The notes under the pieces were generated by a model. That model was not told where the DNA came from. It searched no databases and was given only the letters and a program-made list of their open reading frames with translations. From NCBI GenBank assembly GCA_937870675.1, contig CALMZN010000002.1, positions 1 through 40,357 on the forward strand: a DNA stretch of 40,357 bases, written 5' to 3'. Positions 16,078 to 28,449 of this stretch are shown piece after piece; positions within the stretch are counted from its first letter, which is position 1, and every line of letters begins with the position of its first letter. Origin of the DNA: an uncultured bacterium (GTDB lineage Bacteria; Patescibacteriota; Patescibacteriia; UBA1558; GWA2-36-10). A program made the translations under genes and the position numbers.

Positions 16078-19000
16078 ATGAATTATCTGCACATTGTTCA
16101 TCAACACAAAAACAGAATAATTTTTTTCATTTTTGTCTTCTTATTTGTTATTTTTGGTAGTTTTTTGTTTGTGGGGGTTGAGAGAGCTAGTGCCGCGACA
16201 TATTATGTTTCCACAACAGGTACCGATGATGCTAGCCATGGCACCGGCACTGGTACTGATGCTTGGCTGACCCTAGATTATGCTTTGACTGGTTCACGGG
16301 TTGCCATGGGAGACACTATTAATATTGAAGCTGGGACTTATAGCTCTTTTTATGGAGCTGACACTTATATTAGCCCCACTATAAACACCGCTAGTGGTAG
16401 CGGACCGGTTATAATACAAGCTTATCCTACCGATGCCGTGGTCACTCTTGATATGCCAGTTAATACTTCCGGCAGTTATGCTTTCCTTTTTCTAAACTCA
16501 ACTAGATGGGGTGAGTTTACTTTTAAACATATTAATTTTACCAATTCCAACGCAGTTGCTTCCCAATTATTTTGGATATACGGTCACAACCTAACTCTTG
16601 AGGATTGCCAAATAACCTTTAACGCCGCCGTGACCAGAACACAAATTTATATAAGCACTGATACTGAAGATGCTAATTTGATATTTAGAAGAACTAAGAT
16701 CATCAATGGTCCATCGGGTAGCAGATACATAATTAGCAACGGTAAGGTCGGCGCAAATGTTACTCTTGAAAGTAGTTTATTTTATGATCAAATTTATTAT
16801 ATCCTAGCCCTAGGAGCTAGAACAAATGTGACTGTGACTAATTCTACTTTTTTCACCAGTTATGCAAAATTTTATATGCCCGCTGAAGCGAGTGGATCAA
16901 TTTTCCATATCAAAAATAATATTTTTTATGCCAATACAGACACCGACTATCGGCCGTTTGTAACGGTTGACGCTATATCAGCTGAAATAATAGCAAATCC
17001 AGACAATTGGGATGTTACAAATAATATTTGGTACTGGTCTAAAGCACCGGTAGCTGAAGTAATACAATATCAGTACTTTATAGGTGGACATACCCACATT
17101 GACCAGGTTGATAGCACCAATCATTATATAAATCCTCAATTTACAGCAACCTCTACTGATGATTATACTATACAAGTTGGATCTGATATCTGTGGTCATG
17201 GATTGCAGGCCAGCTTACCAGCCGACGGTGATGTCACTGGGGTAGCTTGGACTGGTAATGATATTGGCGCTTATAAGTGCCCTAGCTCAAGTACTGGCGT
17301 TACTTTATTAGATAAAGTTGCCTTTGTTGGTGATTCTATAATGCTTCAAGGTACAGTCGCTTCAACTTTTACTGACCAAACTGGCCTAGATGTTGTTGCC
17401 GTCGCTGATACCGCAATATCTGGCGCACCAATGCAAAAAATATTTGATTCTATTGATGCTGTAATGATAAATAGTAGCCCCAGTACTGTATTTTTATCAA
17501 TTGGCATCAATAATTTAGCCTTGCAAACACCAGCCCTAGCCACCAACACCGAATATGCTAATTATATTTTAGAGATTATGGAAAAAATTGAAGATTGGGG
17601 AGCAACACCGATCTGGTTGGGCATAGGGACACTTAATAATTACGGTGGGTTGCCTGACACTCCTATTCCTATAATCAACGCCGCTGTTGAAGCTGGTTGC
17701 GTCTCTCATGGCTGGACATGTGACGCCTATTATGATCAAATGACTTTCAACTCTAGCTGGCAATCCGCCTCACCTAATGGATATTATGACACCAATGGCG
17801 ATGTCCATCCCAATACTGCTGGCTATCAGCTCATCGGAGAATTTGCTGAATATTTATATTATACTCACCACACTATGGGTACTGATGAAATAGATGTCGG
17901 AGCCGGAGCTAGAGTCTACTCTAATGGTAAATTTAGAGATCAAGGCGTTGTTTCTGGGATTACGGCTGATTTGACAGTAACACCAGCGTGGGGTGGCTTT
18001 ACAACTGGAGATTACTCTTATTGGTTGGATGTCGGTATTGATTCGTGGTTGACTAGTGGCACATATAATAAACAATGGACTGCTTCTTCTACTTTAGCCA
18101 CAACTACGATTTATACAATTGGTGATTTAGCCCCATCAAAATATTATAAATTTAAATTAGATGGAGCTGATTATACCAGTATTACTGGTGACACTTGCGC
18201 CAGTGGTATTTGTCTTTCAGATTCTTTGGGTAACCTTACTTTTACTTATGCGGGTGGTTATTCTACCCACACTTTTGCTTTGGAACAAAATACTAGTGCG
18301 CCAACTAATATTGGATTTACATCAATTACTGCTGATTCTACAAGTCAGCTAACAATTTTGGCAGACACAGCTGTTGACTCTGATCCGGGATTATCAGCAA
18401 CTCCATATTGGTTTGATGAAACAACAGGTGGTTCAGGCGCAACAGATTCTTCGGATTGGCAATCTTCAGCCACGTATATAGATAGTGGCTTATCAACTAA
18501 TACTCAGTATACTTATAGAGTCAAGGCCCGAGATGGCAATACCAACGAATCCGACTATTCTACTACCTTATCAAAATATACTCTAGCCCCTACACCCAGC
18601 AATCTATCAGCCACTGCCAGCCGAACTAGCATAAGTCTATCGGTCAGCGCTTTAGATAATGCCAGTTCTGGTTCATCGGGTTATTATTTTTCTCGCAATG
18701 ACGGTACTAACTCCGGCTGGATACAAACTAATACTTGGGATGATACAAGTTTATCTTGTGGCACTTCATATACCTATTCAGTAAAGTATCGAAATGGTGA
18801 TGGGACAGAAACTAGCGTAAATACCATCACTAAATCAACAAGTGGTTGTAGTGGTGGTGGTAGCTACTATATACCCTCCGTTGGTCTGGGGAGTACGGAT
18901 TTTTATTTTAAAATTGGTGAGACCAAAGAAATTACTGGCCTAGGAACCAATGGAATAAATATTTTGGTCTATGTTCATTCATCATTGATATTTAGTTTGG

Positions 19001-19725
19001 TAAATTCAAATACAAAATATAATTTGGAAGTTTTGGATTTAGATACAGCTACTGGTCTAATAAAAATAAAATTAGCGGACAGAATTTTTTATTTATCACC
19101 TGGTAAAAGTCAAAAATTTGACCTTGATGGGGGTGGAAATTTTGATTTGCAATTAGTTTATAATAAATTAAAAGTTAATCAAATTGATTTAACTCTGCTC
19201 ACATTAGATCAGCCAATCCCGACTTCTGACTTATTAGCAAATGGTAGTCTAGTCAAAACACCGAACGATCCGGCGGTTTATCTGGTAGAAAACGGGATGA
19301 AGAGGCACATAATCAATGAGGATGTTTTTATAGCCCAAGGATTTTCTTGGTCTGATATTATAGATGTGCCGAATTTGGACAATTATCCTTCTGGAGAAAT
19401 AATAAATATCACTAGTAATAAAACCAACAACCCATCAGTGATAAATAATTATGTATTTACAGTTAATTTGCCATATGGTAGTGCTAGTGATGATGTGCTA
19501 CGGCTACAAAAATTTTTAAATGCCAATGGATTTATTGTGGCTAATACTGGGTTCGGCTCACCTGGTCATGAAACTAAAATATTCGGCAGAGCTACCAGAG
19601 CGGCCTTAATAAAATTTCAAAATAAATATAAAAAACAAATTCTTGAACCCTTGGGTCTAAGCAATGGCACTGGAATTTTTGGTCCAGCCACTAGAGAATT
19701 TATAAAAAATAATTTTAGTTATTAG
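16078..19725 (+). CDS. Large secreted protein: beta-helix, SGNH/GDSL hydrolase, FN3-like and peptidoglycan-binding-like domains
   Basis: Signal ASA|ATYYVS; GDTINIEAGTY; NPQF...DIGAY; SGNH blocks FVGDSI, GINN, DVHP; GLSTNTQYTYRVKARD; DVLRLQKFLN...GIFGPATR. Confidence 0.8.
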   Translation: MNYLHIVHQHKNRIIFFIFVFLFVIFGSFLFVGVERASAATYYVSTTGTDDASHGTGTGTDAWLTLDYALTGSRVAMGDTINIEAGTYSSFYGADTYISPTINTASGSGPVIIQAYPTDAVVTLDMPVNTSGSYAFLFLNSTRWGEFTFKHINFTNSNAVASQLFWIYGHNLTLEDCQITFNAAVTRTQIYISTDTEDANLIFRRTKIINGPSGSRYIISNGKVGANVTLESSLFYDQIYYILALGARTNVTVTNSTFFTSYAKFYMPAEASGSIFHIKNNIFYANTDTDYRPFVTVDAISAEIIANPDNWDVTNNIWYWSKAPVAEVIQYQYFIGGHTHIDQVDSTNHYINPQFTATSTDDYTIQVGSDICGHGLQASLPADGDVTGVAWTGNDIGAYKCPSSSTGVTLLDKVAFVGDSIMLQGTVASTFTDQTGLDVVAVADTAISGAPMQKIFDSIDAVMINSSPSTVFLSIGINNLALQTPALATNTEYANYILEIMEKIEDWGATPIWLGIGTLNNYGGLPDTPIPIINAAVEAGCVSHGWTCDAYYDQMTFNSSWQSASPNGYYDTNGDVHPNTAGYQLIGEFAEYLYYTHHTMGTDEIDVGAGARVYSNGKFRDQGVVSGITADLTVTPAWGGFTTGDYSYWLDVGIDSWLTSGTYNKQWTASSTLATTTIYTIGDLAPSKYYKFKLDGADYTSITGDTCASGICLSDSLGNLTFTYAGGYSTHTFALEQNTSAPTNIGFTSITADSTSQLTILADTAVDSDPGLSATPYWFDETTGGSGATDSSDWQSSATYIDSGLSTNTQYTYRVKARDGNTNESDYSTTLSKYTLAPTPSNLSATASRTSISLSVSALDNASSGSSGYYFSRNDGTNSGWIQTNTWDDTSLSCGTSYTYSVKYRNGDGTETSVNTITKSTSGCSGGGSYYIPSVGLGSTDFYFKIGETKEITGLGTNGINILVYVHSSLIFSLVNSNTKYNLEVLDLDTATGLIKIKLADRIFYLSPGKSQKFDLDGGGNFDLQLVYNKLKVNQIDLTLLTLDQPIPTSDLLANGSLVKTPNDPAVYLVENGMKRHIINEDVFIAQGFSWSDIIDVPNLDNYPSGEIINITSNKTNNPSVINNYVFTVNLPYGSASDDVLRLQKFLNANGFIVANTGFGSPGHETKIFGRATRAALIKFQNKYKKQILEPLGLSNGTGIFGPATREFIKNNFSY

Positions 19726-23656: not shown

Positions 23657-23672
23657 TTTTGTGCTATAATAT
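23657..23672 (+). promoter_or_regulatory. Extended -10 promoter
   Basis: TTTTGTGCTATAATAT, identical to 25235-25250. Confidence 0.6.
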
Positions 23673-23682
23673 AAGCGTCAAT

Positions 23683-25212
23683 ATGGCGAAATTTTTTAAG
23701 ATACCATACACCAAAAAAATTTTTACCTTTTTCCTAATTTTTGTTTGGGTTTTTTCATCTTGGCCGAAAATTATTGATTTTCCGCCAACAGTAAAAGAGG
23801 CCTCCGCCGCTAGTGGCGATGTCATACTTTTGTGGGACACGGCCAATGGTTCAGTCCCTTCGGGCTGGACTTGTATTTCTTGCACTGGTGGTGATGCTTT
23901 TTACGGTGTTTTCCCCAGAGCCGCTTCCAGCTATGGCGCGTCCACGGCTGGCTCTGATACTCATACGCACACTTTAACTTATTCTAGCGCTACCCAAGGC
24001 GCCAATGGTGATGCCTTGGGTGAACTTACTGGTAATAGAGCGTCTGTCAACACGCATACGCATACTTGGGGCAATATTACTTCTGGTAGTGGCGATGTCA
24101 GGCCAAGTTATAAAAATTTGAATTTTATTTATGCCAACAATCCTTCATCAATTCCCGCCAATGTTATTGCTGTGTTTGATAGCACTTTGCCGTCTGGCTG
24201 GACAAGATACAGCGCTTTGGACAGCATATATTTGCGTGGCAATGCTGATAATGCGACCGGAGGCGGAGCAACGCATTATCATGCTATTGCTAGTGGCTCC
24301 ATAACCTCAAGCGGTCACAGCAATATTTTGACTGACTCTGGCAATGCTCGCAGTGCTTGTAATCAAACGGCTGGCCACCTTCTTCCTTCGGCCACTACAA
24401 ATCTTGATAATAACAACAATGCCCCTCCCTATGTTCAGGTAATTTTTGCCTATAATTCCAGCGGTAGCGCTATTTCTCTTTCTTCAACTTCGGCTACAGG
24501 CATGATTGCTTTTTTCAATGCCACGCCACCTTCGGGCTGGGACACTATTTCAGATGTCTCGCCTTGGAATGGTAATTTTTTGATGGGTTATTCTAGCTAT
24601 GGCTCAACCGGCGGCTCAAGCGCTGATCATAATCATGGTGGGTCCAAGAGTTTTACATCAGCCGCCTGCGCGTCAAGCGCGAATGGTCTTGGTCCAACTG
24701 GCACTTATACTGGCGCATTAGAAACTCATTCTCATAGCGTCACTTACACGATTGATTCTCAAGCATCACTGCCGCTTTATCGCGATGTTATTTTAGCCAA
24801 AAAAGAAGCGCCAACATTTAGCATTAGCATATCCACCAATGGCGCAGTAGCTTTTGGAACACTGGCTCTGGAGCAGACCCAAGACAATACAGTTACCGGA
24901 GTCAATGATATAGAGATTGTGAGCGTTGATGTTGGCCCGGTAGATTTGGATATCAAAAGCACAGTTTTTACAGAGGGAGGTAATACTTGGACACTTGGCT
25001 CCAGTAATGGTTCCAATCAAGTCAAATGGGAGTTTGCCACCTCAACTAATAATTGGGTGACTATGGCCGTGGCCAATTCAAATTATGAGATGGATCTCAA
25101 TGTCGCCCAGTCAGCTACTAGAAATGTATATTTGCGCATTACTATGCCAACAGCGACCAATTCTTACAACCAATATAGCTCAACAGTCACCATTACGGCC
25201 TCATCTCCGTAG
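23683..25212 (+). CDS. Secreted protein with three phage tail-collar/HxH repeats and a C-terminal pilin-like domain (putative fibre tip)
   Basis: Signal ending ASA|; three PSGW...(G)G..HxH...PxY..(V/L) repeats; last ~134 aa align with the product of 25338-25856. Confidence 0.7.
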   Translation: MAKFFKIPYTKKIFTFFLIFVWVFSSWPKIIDFPPTVKEASAASGDVILLWDTANGSVPSGWTCISCTGGDAFYGVFPRAASSYGASTAGSDTHTHTLTYSSATQGANGDALGELTGNRASVNTHTHTWGNITSGSGDVRPSYKNLNFIYANNPSSIPANVIAVFDSTLPSGWTRYSALDSIYLRGNADNATGGGATHYHAIASGSITSSGHSNILTDSGNARSACNQTAGHLLPSATTNLDNNNNAPPYVQVIFAYNSSGSAISLSSTSATGMIAFFNATPPSGWDTISDVSPWNGNFLMGYSSYGSTGGSSADHNHGGSKSFTSAACASSANGLGPTGTYTGALETHSHSVTYTIDSQASLPLYRDVILAKKEAPTFSISISTNGAVAFGTLALEQTQDNTVTGVNDIEIVSVDVGPVDLDIKSTVFTEGGNTWTLGSSNGSNQVKWEFATSTNNWVTMAVANSNYEMDLNVAQSATRNVYLRITMPTATNSYNQYSSTVTITASSP

Positions 25213-25337: not shown

Positions 25338-25856
25338 ATGAAAGAAACTATTTTATCAACATTGATTGTCATTGTTTTTGGTTTTTTGGTGGTAGTTGGT
25401 GTCAGAGCCGCTGACAATGCGGATGTCACAGCCACTGTCACAGTCCAAAACATTGCTATGACCTTGAGCCAGTCAACATTTGACTATGGCACTATGTCAA
25501 GCAATACCACCTCTACCACAGTGCCTCTTTGGGCGGGGGCAGGCATAGTAGCCACCAACACTGGCAATGTCAACGAAGATTTTGACATCAACAGCGCTGA
25601 CACTGCTGCTTGGACGCTAGCGACAGCCACATCAACCGCTGATATTTACGCTCATCGTTTTTGCAATGACACGGATAATGACTGCACAACACCTTGGACT
25701 AATTACACAGCCATGACTACATCGCCAGGAGCGTTGGACACGGGAATAGCAGCATCGGGCACAGTTGCTTTTCAATTGCAGATACACACTCCCAACCCTA
25801 GCACAGTTTTTACTGAGCAGAGCTCTAGCGTGACAGTGACGGCTAGCGCCAGCTAA
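25338..25856 (+). CDS. Secreted beta-rich subunit, TasA/WxL/pilin-like (putative major fibre subunit)
   Basis: Signal VRA|, N-terminal ADNADVTATVTVQ strand, FDYG, NTGNV, terminal SVTVTAS strand. Confidence 0.65.
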   Translation: MKETILSTLIVIVFGFLVVVGVRAADNADVTATVTVQNIAMTLSQSTFDYGTMSSNTTSTTVPLWAGAGIVATNTGNVNEDFDINSADTAAWTLATATSTADIYAHRFCNDTDNDCTTPWTNYTAMTTSPGALDTGIAASGTVAFQLQIHTPNPSTVFTEQSSSVTVTASAS

Positions 25857-25889: not shown

Positions 25890-26492
25890 ATGAAAAAATC
25901 TACCTTAGCGGTTGTGGCTATTTGTTTATTTTTACCTTTTTGGGCTTTGGCCAAGATTGGCGTGGGGGTGGGGACTGGTAAAATAGTGGTTGATCAGCCG
26001 ATGAAACCCGGTTTGATTTACACTTTACCACCTTTAGTGGTTCTAAATACCGGCGATGAGGCCTCAGATTACGGCGTCACTATTCAACATCGTGAAAATC
26101 AAGAGCAGATGAAACCAGCTAAGGAATGGTTTAGTTTTGAGCCCAGTAGTTTTTATCTGAATCCCGGTGAATCAAAAGTTGTTCAAATCAAATTAACTTT
26201 GCCCATAAAAGGGGCTAGACCGGGAGATTATTTTGCTTTTTTACAGGCCTATCCAAAGCAAAAAGCTGGTGTCTCGGGTACTAGTGTCAATATAGCCGCC
26301 GCCGCTAAATTGTATTTTACGATAGTGCCTAGTAATTTTTTTGCCGGAATTTATTATAGGATTGTTTCACTTTTGACGCTTTATTCTCCTTGGGGGTACA
26401 TAGTTTTGGTAGTCATTGGAGCTACTTTGTTGCTTGGCATACTGCGCCGTTTCATTTCTTTTAATATCGGACTTAGCGTCAAGAAAAAATAA
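25890..26492 (+). CDS. Membrane-anchored Ig-fold protein, PapD-like or WxL-interacting-like (putative chaperone)
   Basis: Signal ALA|; VVLNTGD, WFSFEPSSFYLNPGESKVVQIKL, PGDYFAFL; C-terminal TM. Confidence 0.6.
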   Translation: MKKSTLAVVAICLFLPFWALAKIGVGVGTGKIVVDQPMKPGLIYTLPPLVVLNTGDEASDYGVTIQHRENQEQMKPAKEWFSFEPSSFYLNPGESKVVQIKLTLPIKGARPGDYFAFLQAYPKQKAGVSGTSVNIAAAAKLYFTIVPSNFFAGIYYRIVSLLTLYSPWGYIVLVVIGATLLLGILRRFISFNIGLSVKKK

Positions 26493-26506: not shown

Positions 26507-27562
26507 ATGAAAAAACATGATTTGATGGTTAATTTATTTTTTTTATTAACAATAGTTTTGGCTATTGTTTTTTTTATTTTTTCTAAAGAAATAGTTTTTA
26601 GCAGTGATAGTGTGGTGACGACAGTGCAAATATCGGTTTGTGGTAATGGCGTCAAAGAGGGCGGCGAAGATTGCGATACTAATGATTTTGGGGGAGTATC
26701 TTGCACTTCTTTGGGCTACACCAGCGGTACTTTGACCTGTGATGCGGCTTGCGATTACGTCACTAGCGCTTGTATATACACGGCACCAGTAATTATTGGC
26801 GGTGGTGGCGGTGGTAGCACTGTATTGTTGCCAACAGTGACAGGAGTAAGCTTTTCAGGCAAAGCTTATCCATCAAGTGAAGTCACAGTTTTAAAAGATG
26901 GCCAAATTATTTCTATGACCATGGCTGGTCCGGATGCTAATTTTTTAGTCAGTTTATCCAATATTTCAGCGGGTAATTATATTTTTGCTTTATATACTGA
27001 GGATTCTCAGGGTCTGCGTTCTTCTTTGTTTACTTTTCAGGTCTATGTCACTTTTGGCGCTATTAGCACGGTTAGTGGTATTTTTCTTTCACCGACAATC
27101 ACTGCGGACAAAGTCGAAGTTAAAAAAGGCGATAATTTGGCAATCTTTGGTCAAACAACGCCCAATTCTCAAGTGAGTATCCTAGTCAACTCTTCTCAAG
27201 ATTTTTTTGCTAGCGCCAGTACGGACGAATCAGGCGCTTACCTTTATAATTTTGATACTAGTGTTTTGGAAGAAGGGGACCATAGTACTAAGTCAAAAGT
27301 AACCCTCAATAGCGCTACTAGCAACTATAGCACAGCCGTTGGTTTTTTGGTGGGTGATAAAAACGTCAGCCGACAACCTGGCGCTGATTGTGGTAATCTG
27401 CGAGGGGACATAAATTGCGACGGCAAGGTAAATTTGGTTGATTTTTCCATTGCCGCTTATTGGTATCGGCGGACAAATCCACCAATTCGCGTTGATATTA
27501 ATGGCGATGGGCAGGTGAGTTTGGTAGATTTTAGTATTATGGCTTACAATTGGACTGGTTAA
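26507..27562 (+). CDS. Secreted protein: Cys-rich module, Ig-like domains and C-terminal dockerin
   Basis: CGNGVKEGGEDCD; poly-Gly linker; duplicated EF-hand-like GDINCDGKVNLVDFSI and DINGDGQVSLVDFSI. Confidence 0.8.
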   Translation: MKKHDLMVNLFFLLTIVLAIVFFIFSKEIVFSSDSVVTTVQISVCGNGVKEGGEDCDTNDFGGVSCTSLGYTSGTLTCDAACDYVTSACIYTAPVIIGGGGGGSTVLLPTVTGVSFSGKAYPSSEVTVLKDGQIISMTMAGPDANFLVSLSNISAGNYIFALYTEDSQGLRSSLFTFQVYVTFGAISTVSGIFLSPTITADKVEVKKGDNLAIFGQTTPNSQVSILVNSSQDFFASASTDESGAYLYNFDTSVLEEGDHSTKSKVTLNSATSNYSTAVGFLVGDKNVSRQPGADCGNLRGDINCDGKVNLVDFSIAAYWYRRTNPPIRVDINGDGQVSLVDFSIMAYNWTG

Positions 27563-28449
27563 TGTTTATGATAAAAGGAGCAGTAAAAATATTATTGTTG
27601 TTGGGTCTGATCTGGCCCTTGAGCGGACAAGCGGCTTTGTTTTATTTTGAAGATAAGCAAAACAGCGCCGTGGTTGGCCAAGATACGAGCATTACTCTAA
27701 AAATTGATACTCAAGGTCAGCTGATAAACGCTATTGAGGGTGATGTGCTTTTGCCGTCGGATTTACAATTAGTGGATATTTTTGATAATGGCTCTATAAT
27801 AAGTTTTTGGGTGGAAAAACCGGAAAACAAAAATAATATAGTCCACTTTTCTGGTATTACTCCGGGCGGTTTTATGGGGCAGGGAATTTTGTTCAAAATA
27901 TTGGTCAAGGCAGGTTCGTCTGGGTCAAGACAAATAACTTTGGGTAATTTGTCAGCTTATTTGAGTGATGGACAAGGCACGAACGTTATTGTGAGCAGTC
28001 AGTCCGCGCAAATGGATTTTATTATAAGTGAAGAGGCGCCGGCAATTGAAATAAAAATAAATGACAATGAACGGCCCGAAGATTTTACACCTATCATTAG
28101 TCGTTTGGATCAGATTGAGCCGGGTATTTATTTTTTGATTTTTGCTACTCAAGATAAGGGGTCAGGAATTGACTATTATGAAGTGCGAGAAGGATGGTAT
28201 AATTACCAACTAGCCCTTAGCCCTTATCGTCTGAAGAATCAAGAATTGAATCAAGATATTTTTGTCAAAGCCGTGGATAAGGCCGGCAATGAACGAGTCG
28301 TTAAGGTCTTGGCTCTATACGATAAGGCGTGGTATGAAAATTTTTGGTTTTATGTTATAATGATAAGCGTAGTTATTTCGTTGTTTTTGGGTAAAAAAAT
28401 AAAATTATTACGGCATCATGGCCGATCGACAAACAAAAATAAAAGTTAA
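27562..28449 (+). CDS. Cohesin-domain protein with C-terminal TM anchor
   Basis: INAIEGDV, SIISFWVEKP, FSGITPGGF, AYLSDGQGT; Ig-like DKGSGIDYYEV...AVDKAGN; TM then basic tail. Start overlaps the upstream stop (TAATG); ATG 27568 is also possible. Confidence 0.75.
   Translation: MFMIKGAVKILLLLGLIWPLSGQAALFYFEDKQNSAVVGQDTSITLKIDTQGQLINAIEGDVLLPSDLQLVDIFDNGSIISFWVEKPENKNNIVHFSGITPGGFMGQGILFKILVKAGSSGSRQITLGNLSAYLSDGQGTNVIVSSQSAQMDFIISEEAPAIEIKINDNERPEDFTPIISRLDQIEPGIYFLIFATQDKGSGIDYYEVREGWYNYQLALSPYRLKNQELNQDIFVKAVDKAGNERVVKVLALYDKAWYENFWFYVIMISVVISLFLGKKIKLLRHHGRSTNKNKS

What the first reader, a model, noticed from the sequence alone, without database searches (positions are those of the whole stretch)
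23815..24804. Three tail-collar/HxH repeats in one chain: possible single-chain mimic of a trimeric phage fibre tip
Seen: three repeats with VPSGW, LPSGW and PPSGW, then FPRA/YLRG/FLMG, a Gly-rich turn and a closing PSY/PPY/PLY strand. His pairs are THTH+THTH, THYH+AGH (degenerate) and DHNH+THSH. Established: T4 gp12 and gp37 tips are homotrimers in which HxH from three chains bind one metal ion. Inference: triplication lets one Sec-exported chain build the pseudo-threefold metal-stapled needle, so a domesticated phage receptor-binding module can cap a single-stranded fibre.
Basis: partly seen in the sequence, partly recalled or inferred. Interest (0 to 1): 0.8.

Follow-up and report, generated by a model that had tools for sequence, protein, structure and literature searches.

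The report
Single-chain three-repeat phage-fibre-tip module
A secreted protein of a tiny symbiotic-type bacterium carries three copies of the histidine-rich tip of a phage tail fibre in one chain, which are predicted to pack together like the three chains of a phage fibre, and probably serves to grip another cell's surface.

Summary
ORF 23659-25212(+) (517 aa) holds three ~110-aa repeats with PSGW, FPRA/YLRG/FLMG, paired HxH and PSY/PPY/PLY exactly as described.

The core inference holds up in silico. A single-repeat profile finds trimeric fibre tips in the PDB: Pvc13 at E 9.5e-4, Pa223 gp60, T4 gp37 and the JUB59 RBP. The AF2 triplet model matches Pas28 and Pas29 of Actinoplanes phage phiAsp2 at E 1e-13, and each of these carries the same three repeats.

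Repeats occur only as sets of three. This was true of 135 of 140 fetched repeat-bearing proteins, and the other five are cut records. In a 401-genome scan, the counts not divisible by three that I re-examined were mostly insert-split triplets, the rest broken or cut genes.

Split from repeats 1-2, repeat 3 docks with ipSAE 0.87 against a best control of 0.02. The contacts are cyclic, and 10 of the 11 motif histidines lie in the interface.

Four points are not supported or not shown:
- Pfam Collar membership is not met.
- Metal binding is untested.
- The direction of transfer between phage and bacterium is open.
- The fibre-cap idea rests only on a C-terminal pilin/TasA-like domain shared with the next gene.

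Verdict: a new variant of a known kind.

The parts
23659..25212 (+). Whole gene, 517 aa (TTG start; alternative ATG at 23683 = residue 9)
   Evidence: The 99%-identical database protein P0002 starts at residue 9.
23683..23808 (+). N-terminal basic stretch, a hydrophobic helix (residues 17-32) and an ASA motif. This is a signal peptide or a membrane anchor.
   Evidence: AF2 predicts a helix at 17-32; sequence. Cleavage was not tested.
23812..24144 (+). Repeat 1 (residues 52-162): VPSGW, FPRA, THTH, THTH, PSY
24151..24483 (+). Repeat 2 (residues 165-275): LPSGW, YLRG, THYH, degenerate TAGH, PPY
24493..24816 (+). Repeat 3 (residues 279-386): PPSGW, FLMG, DHNH, THSH, PLY
   Evidence: Docks onto repeats 1-2.
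23962..23970 (+). H102-x-H104, site 1 of repeat 1
   Evidence: In the predicted inter-repeat interface.
24055..24063 (+). H133-x-H135, site 2 of repeat 1
24274..24282 (+). H206-x-H208, site 1 of repeat 2
   Evidence: H208 is in the interface; H206 is not named there.
24367..24378 (+). T237-A-G-H240, degenerate site 2 of repeat 2. The first His is lost and one residue is inserted.
   Evidence: this position is His in 62 of 69 homologues.
24628..24636 (+). H324-x-H326, site 1 of repeat 3
24727..24735 (+). H357-x-H359, site 2 of repeat 3
24817..25209 (+). C-terminal beta-sandwich domain (residues 387-517), pilin/TasA/PapD-like fold. It is always the last domain of the proteins that carry it.
   Evidence: Foldseek TasA 8aur at E 0.012. 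VIA Z 7-8.3 to PapD-like, Csu, TasA and archaeal pilins. Lies within 3 residues of the C-terminus in 54 of 54 carriers.
25338..25856 (+). Next gene, 172 aa: a signal peptide plus a stand-alone copy of the same C-terminal domain
   Evidence: My domain HMM hits only this ORF (E 6.7e-15) and the gene itself in the whole genome. BLASTP E 4e-5.
25890..26492 (+). 200-aa protein with a signal peptide, one beta-domain and a C-terminal membrane helix. A possible partner; its role is unknown.
   Evidence: It belongs to a ~200-aa family from candidate-phyla bacteria; NPCBM_assoc is carried by 11% of one neighbouring cluster, which is a lead only.

Best explanation
The gene encodes an exported surface protein of a small-genome bacterium; its named homologues are from Patescibacteria/CPR. 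The core of the protein is three tandem copies of the domain that forms the distal, histidine-stapled tip of trimeric phage and PVC tail fibres.

In a phage fibre three identical chains each give one copy. Here one chain gives all three. They fold around a common pseudo-threefold axis in three ways:
- The three first strands meet.
- The closing P-x-Y strand of each repeat pairs with the F/Y-x-R/M-G strand of the next repeat, in a closed ring.
- The HxH hairpins lie in the core.

There the histidines would bind up to two metal ions. Site 1 would use six His. Site 2 would use five in this protein, because one has been lost. This step is inferred by analogy with T4 gp37, JUB59 and SU10.

The module most likely acts as a rigid binding head (adhesin) for a surface structure of another cell. 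The C-terminal pilin/TasA-like domain, shared with the next gene's product, would tether the head to a fibre or to the cell surface.

Shown by computation: the repeats, their kinship with fibre tips, the obligate set of three, and the predicted compact packing. Inferred only: metal binding, what is bound, and the tethering.
For: 1. Repeats and conserved histidines.

2. Kinship with fibre tips.
- The profile of 87 single repeats against the PDB returned five sequences at E up to 10. Four of them are trimeric fibre tips: Pvc13 9qgo at E 9.5e-4, Pa223 gp60 9nxk at 0.029, T4 gp37 2xgf at 1 and JUB59 RBP 6ov6 at 2.1.
- For Pvc13 the aligned pieces follow the repeat's motif order and end at the chain's C-terminus. 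For Pa223 gp60 the PxGW piece was aligned only by the full-length profile, and one search aligned its second half, which also ends at the C-terminus.
- The AF2 triplet model against BFVD gave Pas28 and Pas29 of phage phiAsp2 at E 1e-13 and 1.9e-12, prob 1.0, TMq 0.56 and 0.58. The next hit was at E 0.07.
- My repeat HMM finds three repeats in each of Pas28 and Pas29, with full-sequence E 1.7e-20 and 3.3e-23.
- Pas29 is annotated as a possible receptor-recognising protein with HXHY motifs and sits beside the putative major tail protein.
- 38 IMG/VR contigs encode Pas29-like triplets.

3. Obligate set of three.
- Of 184 fetched proteins, 118 have 3 repeats, 17 have 6, 5 have 2 (all cut records) and 44 have none. 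No protein has 1, 4 or 5.
- The single-repeat profile matched 33 of 401 genomes.
- The counts not divisible by three that I re-examined were mostly triplets split by insertions, the rest frame-broken or contig-cut genes.
- Repeat positions are orthologous across proteins: 4 label changes on the tree against a shuffled mean of 38.7.

4. Compact packing.
- AF2 of residues 48-390 gave pLDDT 89 and pTM 0.85.
- Repeat 3 against repeats 1-2 gave ipSAE 0.87 (runs 0.85, 0.87, 0.87) against a best control of 0.02. That mark was reached by 116 of 157 solved complexes and by 2 of 215 mismatched pairs.
- The runs agree in at least 84% of contacts, and the partner's pLDDT is at least 82.
- Contacts are cyclic, and 10 of the 11 motif His lie in the interface.

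5. Literature. HxH pairs in such tips are said to bind Fe2+ and stabilise the fibre (PMC9509320, passage read).
Against: - No coordinates were available to me, so I did not measure whether the histidines converge on one axis. H206 is not named in the confident interface.
- The matches to solved fibre tips are weak one by one: E 9.5e-4 to 2.1.
- hhalign of the repeat profile against single T4 gp37 and gp12 sequences gave only 5% probability.
- Pfam Collar, Phage_fiber and PHROGs give no significant match.
- tblastn of the triplet against 50,697 phage records found nothing.
- Foldseek and VIA against the PDB found no whole-module match; the best were E 0.09 and Z 4.0.
- Both structure predictors use the same alignment, so they are not fully independent. 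The calibration of the complex test held no ligand and did not use my own alignments.
- The first repeat count used proteins retrieved with the whole triplet, which favours triplets.
- Nothing tested what the module binds.
Confidence: 0.66

Rival explanations
1. The repeats are ordinary tandem adhesin domains (beads on a string). Each folds alone, the histidines have local roles, and the resemblance to fibre tips is only compositional (Gly/Ser/Thr/His-rich).
For: - Matches to solved tips are weak, and glycophorin also appears at E 0.45 in the same list.
- hhalign probabilities are about 5%.
- There is no Pfam Collar hit.
Against: - Repeats come only in threes or sixes in 135 of 140 repeat-bearing proteins; the other five are cut records.
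- Repeat positions are orthologous.
- pTM is 0.85 for the three together.
- The docking test gave ipSAE 0.87 against 0.02, with about 400 contacts.
- The phiAsp2 matches are significant both by HMM and by fold.
Confidence: 0.07
2. The triplet is a genuine fibre-tip-like pseudo-trimer, but the protein is not a fibre cap. On this reading the C-terminal domain is a general wall- or surface-anchoring (sorting) domain of these bacteria, in the manner of WxL-type or S-layer-anchoring domains. The 172-aa neighbour would be another anchored protein or a decoy.
For: - The domain sits at the extreme C-terminus of 54 of 54 carriers. Their N-terminal parts include S8 peptidases, DUF2341/Laminin_G_3, Gly_rich_2, BclA_C, fn3 and BNR.
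- Only 10 of the 54 carry the triplet.
- The nearest named ESM Atlas cluster is WxL at 0.82, which is a lead only.
- The WxLIP structure 9i1y matches at Z 5.8.
Against: - The best fold matches are donor-strand fibre subunits and pilin domains of two-domain tip adhesins: TasA, Csu, FimH, PapG, CfaE and archaeal pili. All are at Z 6-8, which the tool calls middling.
- Pfam WxL did not match at E up to 1.
Confidence: 0.3
3. The histidine clusters form a catalytic metal centre, so the module would be an enzyme (for instance one that cuts polysaccharide or cell wall) rather than a structural binding head.
For: - Twelve conserved His are present.
- The same C-terminal domain also ends secreted S8 peptidases.
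Against: - No enzyme family matches in Pfam or NCBIfam.
- The only relatives with known structure use HxH structurally.
- One His is lost in this lineage while the rest of the module is kept.
Confidence: 0.04
4. The gene is a tail-fibre gene of a prophage or phage remnant, not a cellular surface protein.
For: The closest characterisable relatives are phage proteins.
Against: - The neighbours are housekeeping genes (uvrA, uvrC, groEL, PPDK, ddl, dnaG, rpoD) and secreted Ig-domain proteins.
- The gene and the five ORFs downstream of it gave no PHROG match at E below 0.01.
- The protein has an N-terminal hydrophobic helix.
- Homologues are giant multi-domain surface proteins of up to 5,808 aa.
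Confidence: 0.02

Closest known systems
Pas28 and Pas29 of Actinoplanes phage phiAsp2 (AY576796) and about 37 related IMG/VR contigs
   Same: - Three repeats of the same domain in one chain (HMM E 1.7e-20 and 3.3e-23).
- The same fold by Foldseek (E 1e-13 and 1.9e-12).
- PxGW in the first repeat.
- Pas29 is annotated as a possible receptor-recognising protein.
   Different: - They are phage tail-region proteins of 936 and 1,291 aa, with the triplet in the C-terminal half.
- Each repeat has four HxH (12 per triplet) against two here.
- Identity to the window protein is only 16-19%.
- They have no pilin-like C-terminal domain.
- They are uncharacterised: my search found no paper describing them (listing only).
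Tips of trimeric fibres with HxH metal sites: T4 gp37 (2XGF), JUB59 RBP (6OV6), Pa223 gp60 (9NXK), Photorhabdus PVC Pvc13 (9QGO), SU10 short fibre
   Same: - The order of motifs: a hydrophobic strand, PxGW, HxH, HxH, then a P-P-Y/F closing strand at the end of the unit.
- Histidine pairs are reported to bind Fe2+ and stabilise the fibre (PMC9509320 passage).
- The Pa223 gp60 tip is said to resemble the gp37 tip (preprint 10.1101/2025.06.11.659172, passage).
[quoted passage not shown]
   Different: - Those are homotrimers with one copy per chain, at the C-terminal end of a long fibre shaft.
- Here three diverged copies sit in one chain, right after the export signal.
- Sequence similarity is marginal (E 9.5e-4 to 2.1).
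T4 gp12 short tail fibre (Collar PF07484 plus receptor-binding domain PF14928)
   Same: - A strand followed by a P-x-x-W start. This was the only piece hhalign aligned.
- A His pair that binds one metal on the threefold axis. That gp12 binds zinc is recalled, not taken from a call.
   Different: - Pfam Collar and S_tail_recep_bd match gp12 but not the window protein or any of 87 homologous repeats.
- hhalign probability is 4.6%.
Two-domain tip adhesins of donor-strand pili (FimH, PapG, CfaE) and TasA-type fibres
   Same: - Layout: a binding head, then a C-terminal pilin-like beta-sandwich.
- A neighbouring gene encodes that sandwich alone.
   Different: - Fold similarity is only Z 6-8, and Foldseek E is 0.012 at best.
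- No chaperone, usher or SipW-type peptidase was recognised among the neighbours.
- The head is a fibre-tip pseudo-trimer, not a lectin jelly roll.

Membership tests
Pfam Collar (PF07484, phage tail collar domain) | A match to the family HMM at or above the gathering score (24 bits) | tested here: not met
   No match for the whole protein at E up to 1, for each single repeat at E up to 10, or for any of 87 homologous repeats at E up to 10. Positive control: T4 gp12 scored 51.9 bits and gp37 42.4 bits.
HxH metal-stapled tips of trimeric phage/PVC fibres (gp37, JUB59, Pa223 gp60, Pvc13 type) | Sequence kinship with solved members | tested here: inconclusive
   With the single-repeat profile, Pvc13 scored E 9.5e-4, gp60 0.029, gp37 1 and JUB59 2.1. 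These are 4 of the 5 sequences returned. hhalign against gp37 alone gave 5%. The link through phiAsp2 Pas28 and Pas29 is significant, but those proteins have no solved structure.
HxH metal-stapled tips of trimeric phage/PVC fibres | Paired HxH motifs conserved in every copy | tested here: met
   Twelve positions are His in 59-68 of 69 homologues. The window protein keeps 11 of them.
HxH metal-stapled tips of trimeric phage/PVC fibres | Three copies packed around a threefold axis with the histidines in the core | tested here: inconclusive
   This is predicted, not measured. pTM is 0.85. ipSAE is 0.87 against 0.02, with cyclic strand contacts and 10 of 11 motif His in the interface. I had no coordinates with which to measure His geometry.
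HxH metal-stapled tips of trimeric phage/PVC fibres | A bound Fe or Zn ion | not testable with these tools
   Two Fe ions rode along but are not scored. ICP-MS or a solved structure is needed.
Pfam Phage_fiber (PF03335) and Gp10_C (PF21939) | A match to the family HMM | tested here: not met
   Phage_fiber matched 2 of 87 repeats, best E 1.3. Gp10_C matched 3 of 87, best E 0.0011. Phage_zn_bind_4 matched 1 of 87 at E 0.0049. These are hints only.
TasA / donor-strand pilin subunits (for the C-terminal domain) | Fold match that stands clearly above background, and donor-strand polymerisation | tested here: inconclusive
   Foldseek gave TasA 8aur at E 0.012. VIA gave Z 8.3-6 to PapD-like domains, Hyper2, archaeal pili, Csu, TLP-1 and TasA, a range the tool itself calls common. 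Polymerisation was not tested.
WxL domain (PF13731) (for the C-terminal domain) | A match to the family HMM | tested here: not met
   No Pfam match at E up to 1 or for the domain alone at E up to 10. The ESM Atlas nearest named cluster is WxL at 0.82, where 20% of members carry it, a lead only. Both the domain and the neighbour contain a W-T-L tripeptide.

The most novel reading that the evidence does not exclude
Patescibacteria, and some Chloroflexi, would recognise the cells they live on with the same device phages use: the metal-stapled tip of a receptor-binding fibre, re-cast as a single-chain pseudo-trimer. Putting three copies in one chain frees the tip from strict threefold symmetry. 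That would allow one repeat to lose a metal ligand, as here, or to take up a whole 200-400-aa domain at its apex, as in relatives. It could give one asymmetric binding site per head, mounted on giant surface proteins or, as here, on a TasA/pilin-like fibre built from the neighbouring 172-aa subunit. phiAsp2-like phages and these bacteria would have exchanged the module.
Probability: 0.3. Interest if true: 0.85.

Novelty: new variant of a known kind. Interest (0 to 1): 0.68.

Why it matters
According to the abstract of PMC12206443 (listing), how ultrasmall episymbiotic bacteria find and hold their hosts remains largely unknown. A widespread, well-conserved module that is kin to phage receptor-binding tips gives a concrete candidate to test. 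The full-length query found 864 representative proteins at E up to 1e-3, a count that includes proteins sharing only the C-terminal domain.

For structural biology, it would be a natural case in which an obligate homotrimeric, metal-stapled fold has been rewritten as one chain. It comes with visible consequences of broken symmetry: position-specific divergence, a lost ligand, and domains inserted in one or two of the three repeats.

For phage biology, it marks Pas28, Pas29 and a clade of uncultured phages as carrying monomeric pseudo-trimeric tips. That bears on how many copies sit on a tail and how they attach.

Tried and rejected
Searches that found nothing significant for the repeats:
- Pfam, PHROGs and NCBIfam on the whole protein.
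- tblastn of the triplet against 50,697 phage records: no match.
- IMG/VR scan with the window triplet: none.
- Genome-contig scan: one locus only.

I used the single protein instead.

Fold searches against the PDB:
- Foldseek PDB with the full model and VIA-wide with the full model reported only the C-terminal domain.
- Foldseek PDB with the triplet model gave a best E of 0.09 with rmsd above 28 Å, which is noise.
- VIA-wide with the triplet gave a best Z of 4.0. All rows span residues from all three repeats, and JUB59 6ov6 scored Z 2.4.
- A single chain of a trimer cannot match a pseudo-trimer well, so this absence says little.

Other tests:
- hhalign of the repeat profile against single T4 gp37 and gp12 C-terminal sequences gave probabilities of 5.3% and 4.6%.
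- The prophage reading was rejected on gene context.
- The placement of the phage repeats on the repeat tree is unresolved because of long branches, so I make no claim about who gave the module to whom.

Literature (listings only unless stated): searches for Patescibacteria + tail fiber + adhesin, HxH + tail fiber + pseudo-trimeric, phiAsp2 and CPR + tail fiber + surface protein + episymbiont found no description of this module. Papers outside the held library were not searched.
Full report
**The observation**

The finding lies inside one ORF, 23659-25212(+), of 517 aa. Coordinates 23815-24804 are residues 53-382.

- PSGW at residues 67, 178 and 291.
- FPRA, YLRG and FLMG.
- THTH and THTH in repeat 1.
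- THYH and a degenerate TAGH in repeat 2.
- DHNH and THSH in repeat 3.
- Closing PSY, PPY and PLY.

The three ~110-aa units are significantly alike. Pairwise BLASTP gives E 7.6e-7, 2.2e-9 and 6.6e-6 at 26-29% identity.

In an alignment of 69 homologues, the twelve histidine positions are His in 59-68 sequences. The missing histidine of repeat 2 is His in 62 of 69. It is lost only in the window protein and in four of the close relatives printed, P0002, P0003, P0005 and P0006.

**Where it sits**

The window is ordinary chromosome of a small genome (829 kb in 84 contigs). It carries uvrC, uvrA, groEL, PPDK, a CCA-adding enzyme, ddl, dnaG and rpoD.

Named homologues come from Parcubacteria, Patescibacteria and Dojkabacteria, and from Dehalococcoidales and Anaerolineales. 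The gene and the five ORFs downstream of it gave no PHROG match at E below 0.01, so this is not a prophage.

The protein starts with a basic stretch and a hydrophobic helix at residues 17-32. This fits export or a membrane anchor. Cleavage was not tested.

**What each repeat is**

Curated libraries do not name it. Pfam, PHROGs and NCBIfam give nothing for the protein. Pfam Collar matches neither the single repeats nor any of 87 homologous repeats, although it matches T4 gp12 and gp37. The label 'tail collar' is therefore not met.

Kinship with fibre tips is nevertheless supported by three lines.

1. A profile of 87 single repeats taken from 29 loci (A4) returned five PDB sequences at E up to 10. 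Four are tips of trimeric fibres:

| PDB entry | Protein | E-value |
|---|---|---|
| 9qgo | Photorhabdus PVC fibre Pvc13 | 9.5e-4 |
| 9nxk | Pseudomonas phage Pa223 gp60 | 0.029 |
| 2xgf | T4 gp37 tip | 1 |
| 6ov6 | JUB59 receptor-binding protein | 2.1 |

- The fifth, glycophorin, is compositional noise.
- For Pvc13 the aligned pieces keep the repeat's order (strand, PxGW, HxH, HxH, PPY strand) and end at the chain's C-terminus. For Pa223 gp60 the PxGW piece was aligned only by the full-length profile; one search aligned its second half, which also ends at the C-terminus.
- Passages I read say that gp60 residues 124-215 closely resemble the gp37 tip (preprint 10.1101/2025.06.11.659172).
- They say that His pairs in the SU10 short fibre may bind Fe2+ and stabilise the fibre, as in T4 and JUB59 (PMC9509320).

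2. The AF2 model of residues 48-390 (pLDDT 89, pTM 0.85) was searched against predicted viral structures. It hit Pas28 and Pas29 of Actinoplanes phage phiAsp2 at E 1e-13 and 1.9e-12, prob 1.0, TMq 0.56 and 0.58. The next hit was at E 0.07.

3. My repeat HMM, built only from cellular repeats, finds three repeats in each of these phage proteins, with full-sequence E 3.3e-23 and 1.7e-20.
- Each phage repeat has four HxH.
- pas29 lies two genes after the putative major tail protein. It is annotated 'possible receptor recognizing protein; contains HXHY motifs; similar to phage TuIa tail fiber'.
- Thirty-eight IMG/VR contigs encode Pas29-like triplets at 51-100% identity. Thirty-six of them cover at least 411 of the 415 residues.
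- On their ORFs my HMM sees three repeats in 31, two in 33 and one in 3. Some ORFs are cut by the locus ends, and the HMM is weaker on the diverged phage copies.

So the single-chain triplet already exists in a phage clade. It is not necessarily a bacterial invention.

**Beads or one body?**

Four tests bear on this.

1. *Repeat number in fetched proteins.* The 184 proteins came from the two homology searches.

| Repeats found | Proteins |
|---|---|
| 3 | 118 |
| 6 (two sets) | 17 |
| 2 (all five records end inside the array) | 5 |
| 0 (these share only the C-terminal domain) | 44 |
| 1, 4 or 5 | 0 |

This set was retrieved with the whole protein, which favours triplets.

2. *Repeat number in a less biased scan.* I searched 401 genomes of the phylum with the single-repeat profile, and 33 had matches.

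| Matches per genome | Genomes |
|---|---|
| 3 | 20 |
| 6 | 5 |
| 12 (scoring cap) | 2 |
| 4, 8 or 10 | 6 |

- I fetched 11 regions from nine genomes, including all six with counts not divisible by three, and rescanned them.
- Nine of the eleven resolve into triplets in which repeat 1 and/or repeat 2 is split by a 200-400-aa insertion (L036-L044). In L036 the triplet runs across two open frames, and L037 and L041 are also cut at a contig end.
- L045 is a gene broken by a change of frame.
- L046 is cut by a contig start.
- I did not verify every match in every genome.

3. *Orthology of repeat positions.* I built a tree of 81 repeats. They came from the window protein, 24 proteins drawn at random from the 118 with three repeats, and the two phage proteins.
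- The labels r1, r2 and r3 need only 4 changes, where the minimum is 2. The shuffled mean is 38.7, and 0 of 200 shuffles were as low.
- The three positions are therefore old and distinct.
- The phage copies sit on long branches, and their placement is unresolved.

4. *Docking.* I split the module into repeats 1-2 and repeat 3 and handed it to the complex predictor, with two Fe ions riding along.
- ipSAE was 0.85, 0.87 and 0.87 against a best control of 0.02.
- That mark was reached by 116 of 157 solved complexes and by 2 of 215 mismatched pairs. Those counts hold only roughly here, because my own alignment and a ligand were used.
- The runs agree in at least 84% of contacts, the partner's pLDDT is at least 82, and there are 398-444 contacts.
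- The pass is unlikely to come from memory of a solved single-chain structure: Foldseek and VIA found no convincing whole-module match in the PDB.
- maps the confident contacts. F85/R87 of repeat 1's FPRA strand touch Y374/D376 of repeat 3's closing strand.
- Y258-Q260 of repeat 2's closing strand touch F307-M309 of repeat 3's FLMG strand.
- The first strands of all three repeats touch one another (I56 with F285; V172/F173 with I283).
- The same kind of contact recurs from repeat 2 to 3 and from repeat 3 back to 1. That is what a closed pseudo-threefold ring requires.
- Ten of the eleven motif histidines are in this confident interface. H206 is not named.

I had no coordinates, so the convergence of the histidines on an axis is inferred, not measured. 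Metal binding is not tested.

**The C-terminal domain and the 'fibre cap' idea**

- *Fold.* Residues 387-517 form a beta-sandwich. Its best structural neighbours are PapD-like domains and donor-strand fibre subunits, together with the pilin domains of two-domain tip adhesins. Foldseek gives TasA 8aur at E 0.012. VIA gives Z 8.3 to 6 for CEP192 PapD-like, Hyper2, Pyrobaculum bundling pili, Csu, TLP-1, TasA, PapG, FimH and CfaE. The tool warns that such Z values are common.
- *Distribution.* An HMM of this domain finds it within three residues of the C-terminus in 54 of 54 carriers. In the window's own genome it finds only two ORFs: this gene, and the 172-aa gene immediately downstream (E 6.7e-15), which is essentially a signal peptide plus this domain (BLASTP E 4e-5).
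- *For the fibre reading.* This layout, a binding head plus a pilin-like domain beside a gene for the bare domain, is that of FimH-type tip adhesins.
- *Against it.* Only 10 of the 54 carriers hold the triplet. The other 44 carry varied N-terminal parts: S8 peptidases (5), DUF2341/Laminin_G_3, Gly_rich_2, BclA_C, fn3, CHB_HEX_C, BNR, or nothing recognisable. The domain could equally be a general surface-anchoring module.
- *Weaker leads.* ESM Atlas neighbours are unnamed ~150-aa proteins of DPANN archaea and Elusimicrobia. The nearest named clusters are WxL at 0.82 and SCPU at 0.79, which are leads only.

I leave the fibre-cap reading at roughly even odds with the anchor reading.

**Function**

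The triplet is most often found in large, mostly unannotated secreted proteins of up to 5,808 aa. Where Pfam recognises anything beside it, the domains are DUF2341, Laminin_G_3, Ig-like, fn3, PKD, Kelch or GBS_Bsp-like. In a sample of 38 such proteins, 24 had no Pfam domain at E 1e-6.

Taken with its kinship to receptor-binding tips, the best reading is a rigid, probably metal-stapled binding head. What it binds is unknown.

The module is patchy in the phylum. The triplet query matched 31 of 401 sampled genomes, with no match in the same-order and same-class genomes listed.

**Novelty**

The domain type is known: the HxH fibre tip. Three things appear to be undescribed:
- its single-chain, position-specialised triplicate form;
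- its wide use in cellular surface proteins of Patescibacteria and Chloroflexi;
- the asymmetric elaborations, namely a lost ligand and whole domains inserted in one or two repeats.

My four literature searches found no description (listings only). The original phiAsp2 genome paper is not in the held library and I did not see it.

I rate this a new variant of a known kind. Confidence is 0.66 in the pseudo-trimer and fibre-tip reading, and lower for any specific function.

Noticed in passing
window 25338-25856 (+): A 172-aa secreted protein that is essentially a stand-alone copy of the C-terminal domain of the gene under study. It is the only other carrier of that domain in the 829-kb genome. 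Both proteins contain a W-T-L tripeptide.
   Followed up: partly
window 25890-26492 (+): A 200-aa protein with a signal peptide, one beta-domain and a C-terminal membrane helix. It belongs to a ~200-aa family from candidate-phyla bacteria (ESM Atlas 0.98). Weak hints point to fn3_5/ASH (PapD-like) and NPCBM_assoc. It could be an assembly or anchoring partner of the two genes before it.
   Followed up: partly
L036-L044 (for example L038 residues 254-339 and 541-580 of the ORF; L044, three sets in one 2,504-aa frame): In one family of the phylum the triplet carries a 200-400-aa insertion inside repeat 2, and sometimes also repeat 1, near the second HxH. This is an asymmetric elaboration that a homotrimer could not have. 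The inserted domains were not identified.
   Followed up: partly
L045 (G099:C2:9000-12500) and L036 (G191:C1:520000-525500): Triplet genes that run across two open frames in different reading frames. These may be frameshifts, pseudogenes or assembly errors.
   Followed up: no
Proteins P0027, P0033, P0034, P0035 and P0157: Secreted S8 subtilases of Patescibacteria end in the same C-terminal domain as the window protein. A solved 'fibril form of serine peptidase Vpr' (8jmw) is among the fold neighbours of that domain at Z 6.7.
   Followed up: no
L035 19272-25990 (phage phiAsp2 pas28, pas29): Two consecutive large tail-region genes each carry a single-chain triplet with 12 HxH motifs. Related uncultured phages (38 IMG/VR contigs) keep this arrangement.
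   Followed up: partly
window 26507-30184 (+): Three further secreted proteins follow in the same direction: 351 aa with Big_6 and a dockerin, 299 aa, and 588 aa with Big_13 and weak OmpL47-type barrel hints. Together this looks like a surface-protein gene cluster.
   Followed up: no
window 16078-19725 (+): A 1,215-aa protein that combines a GDSL lipase/acylhydrolase domain, fn3 and a peptidoglycan-binding domain.
   Followed up: no
window 23659 versus 23683: The ORF list starts the gene at a TTG. The 99%-identical database protein starts eight codons later at the ATG (residue 9), which is the likelier start.
   Followed up: no
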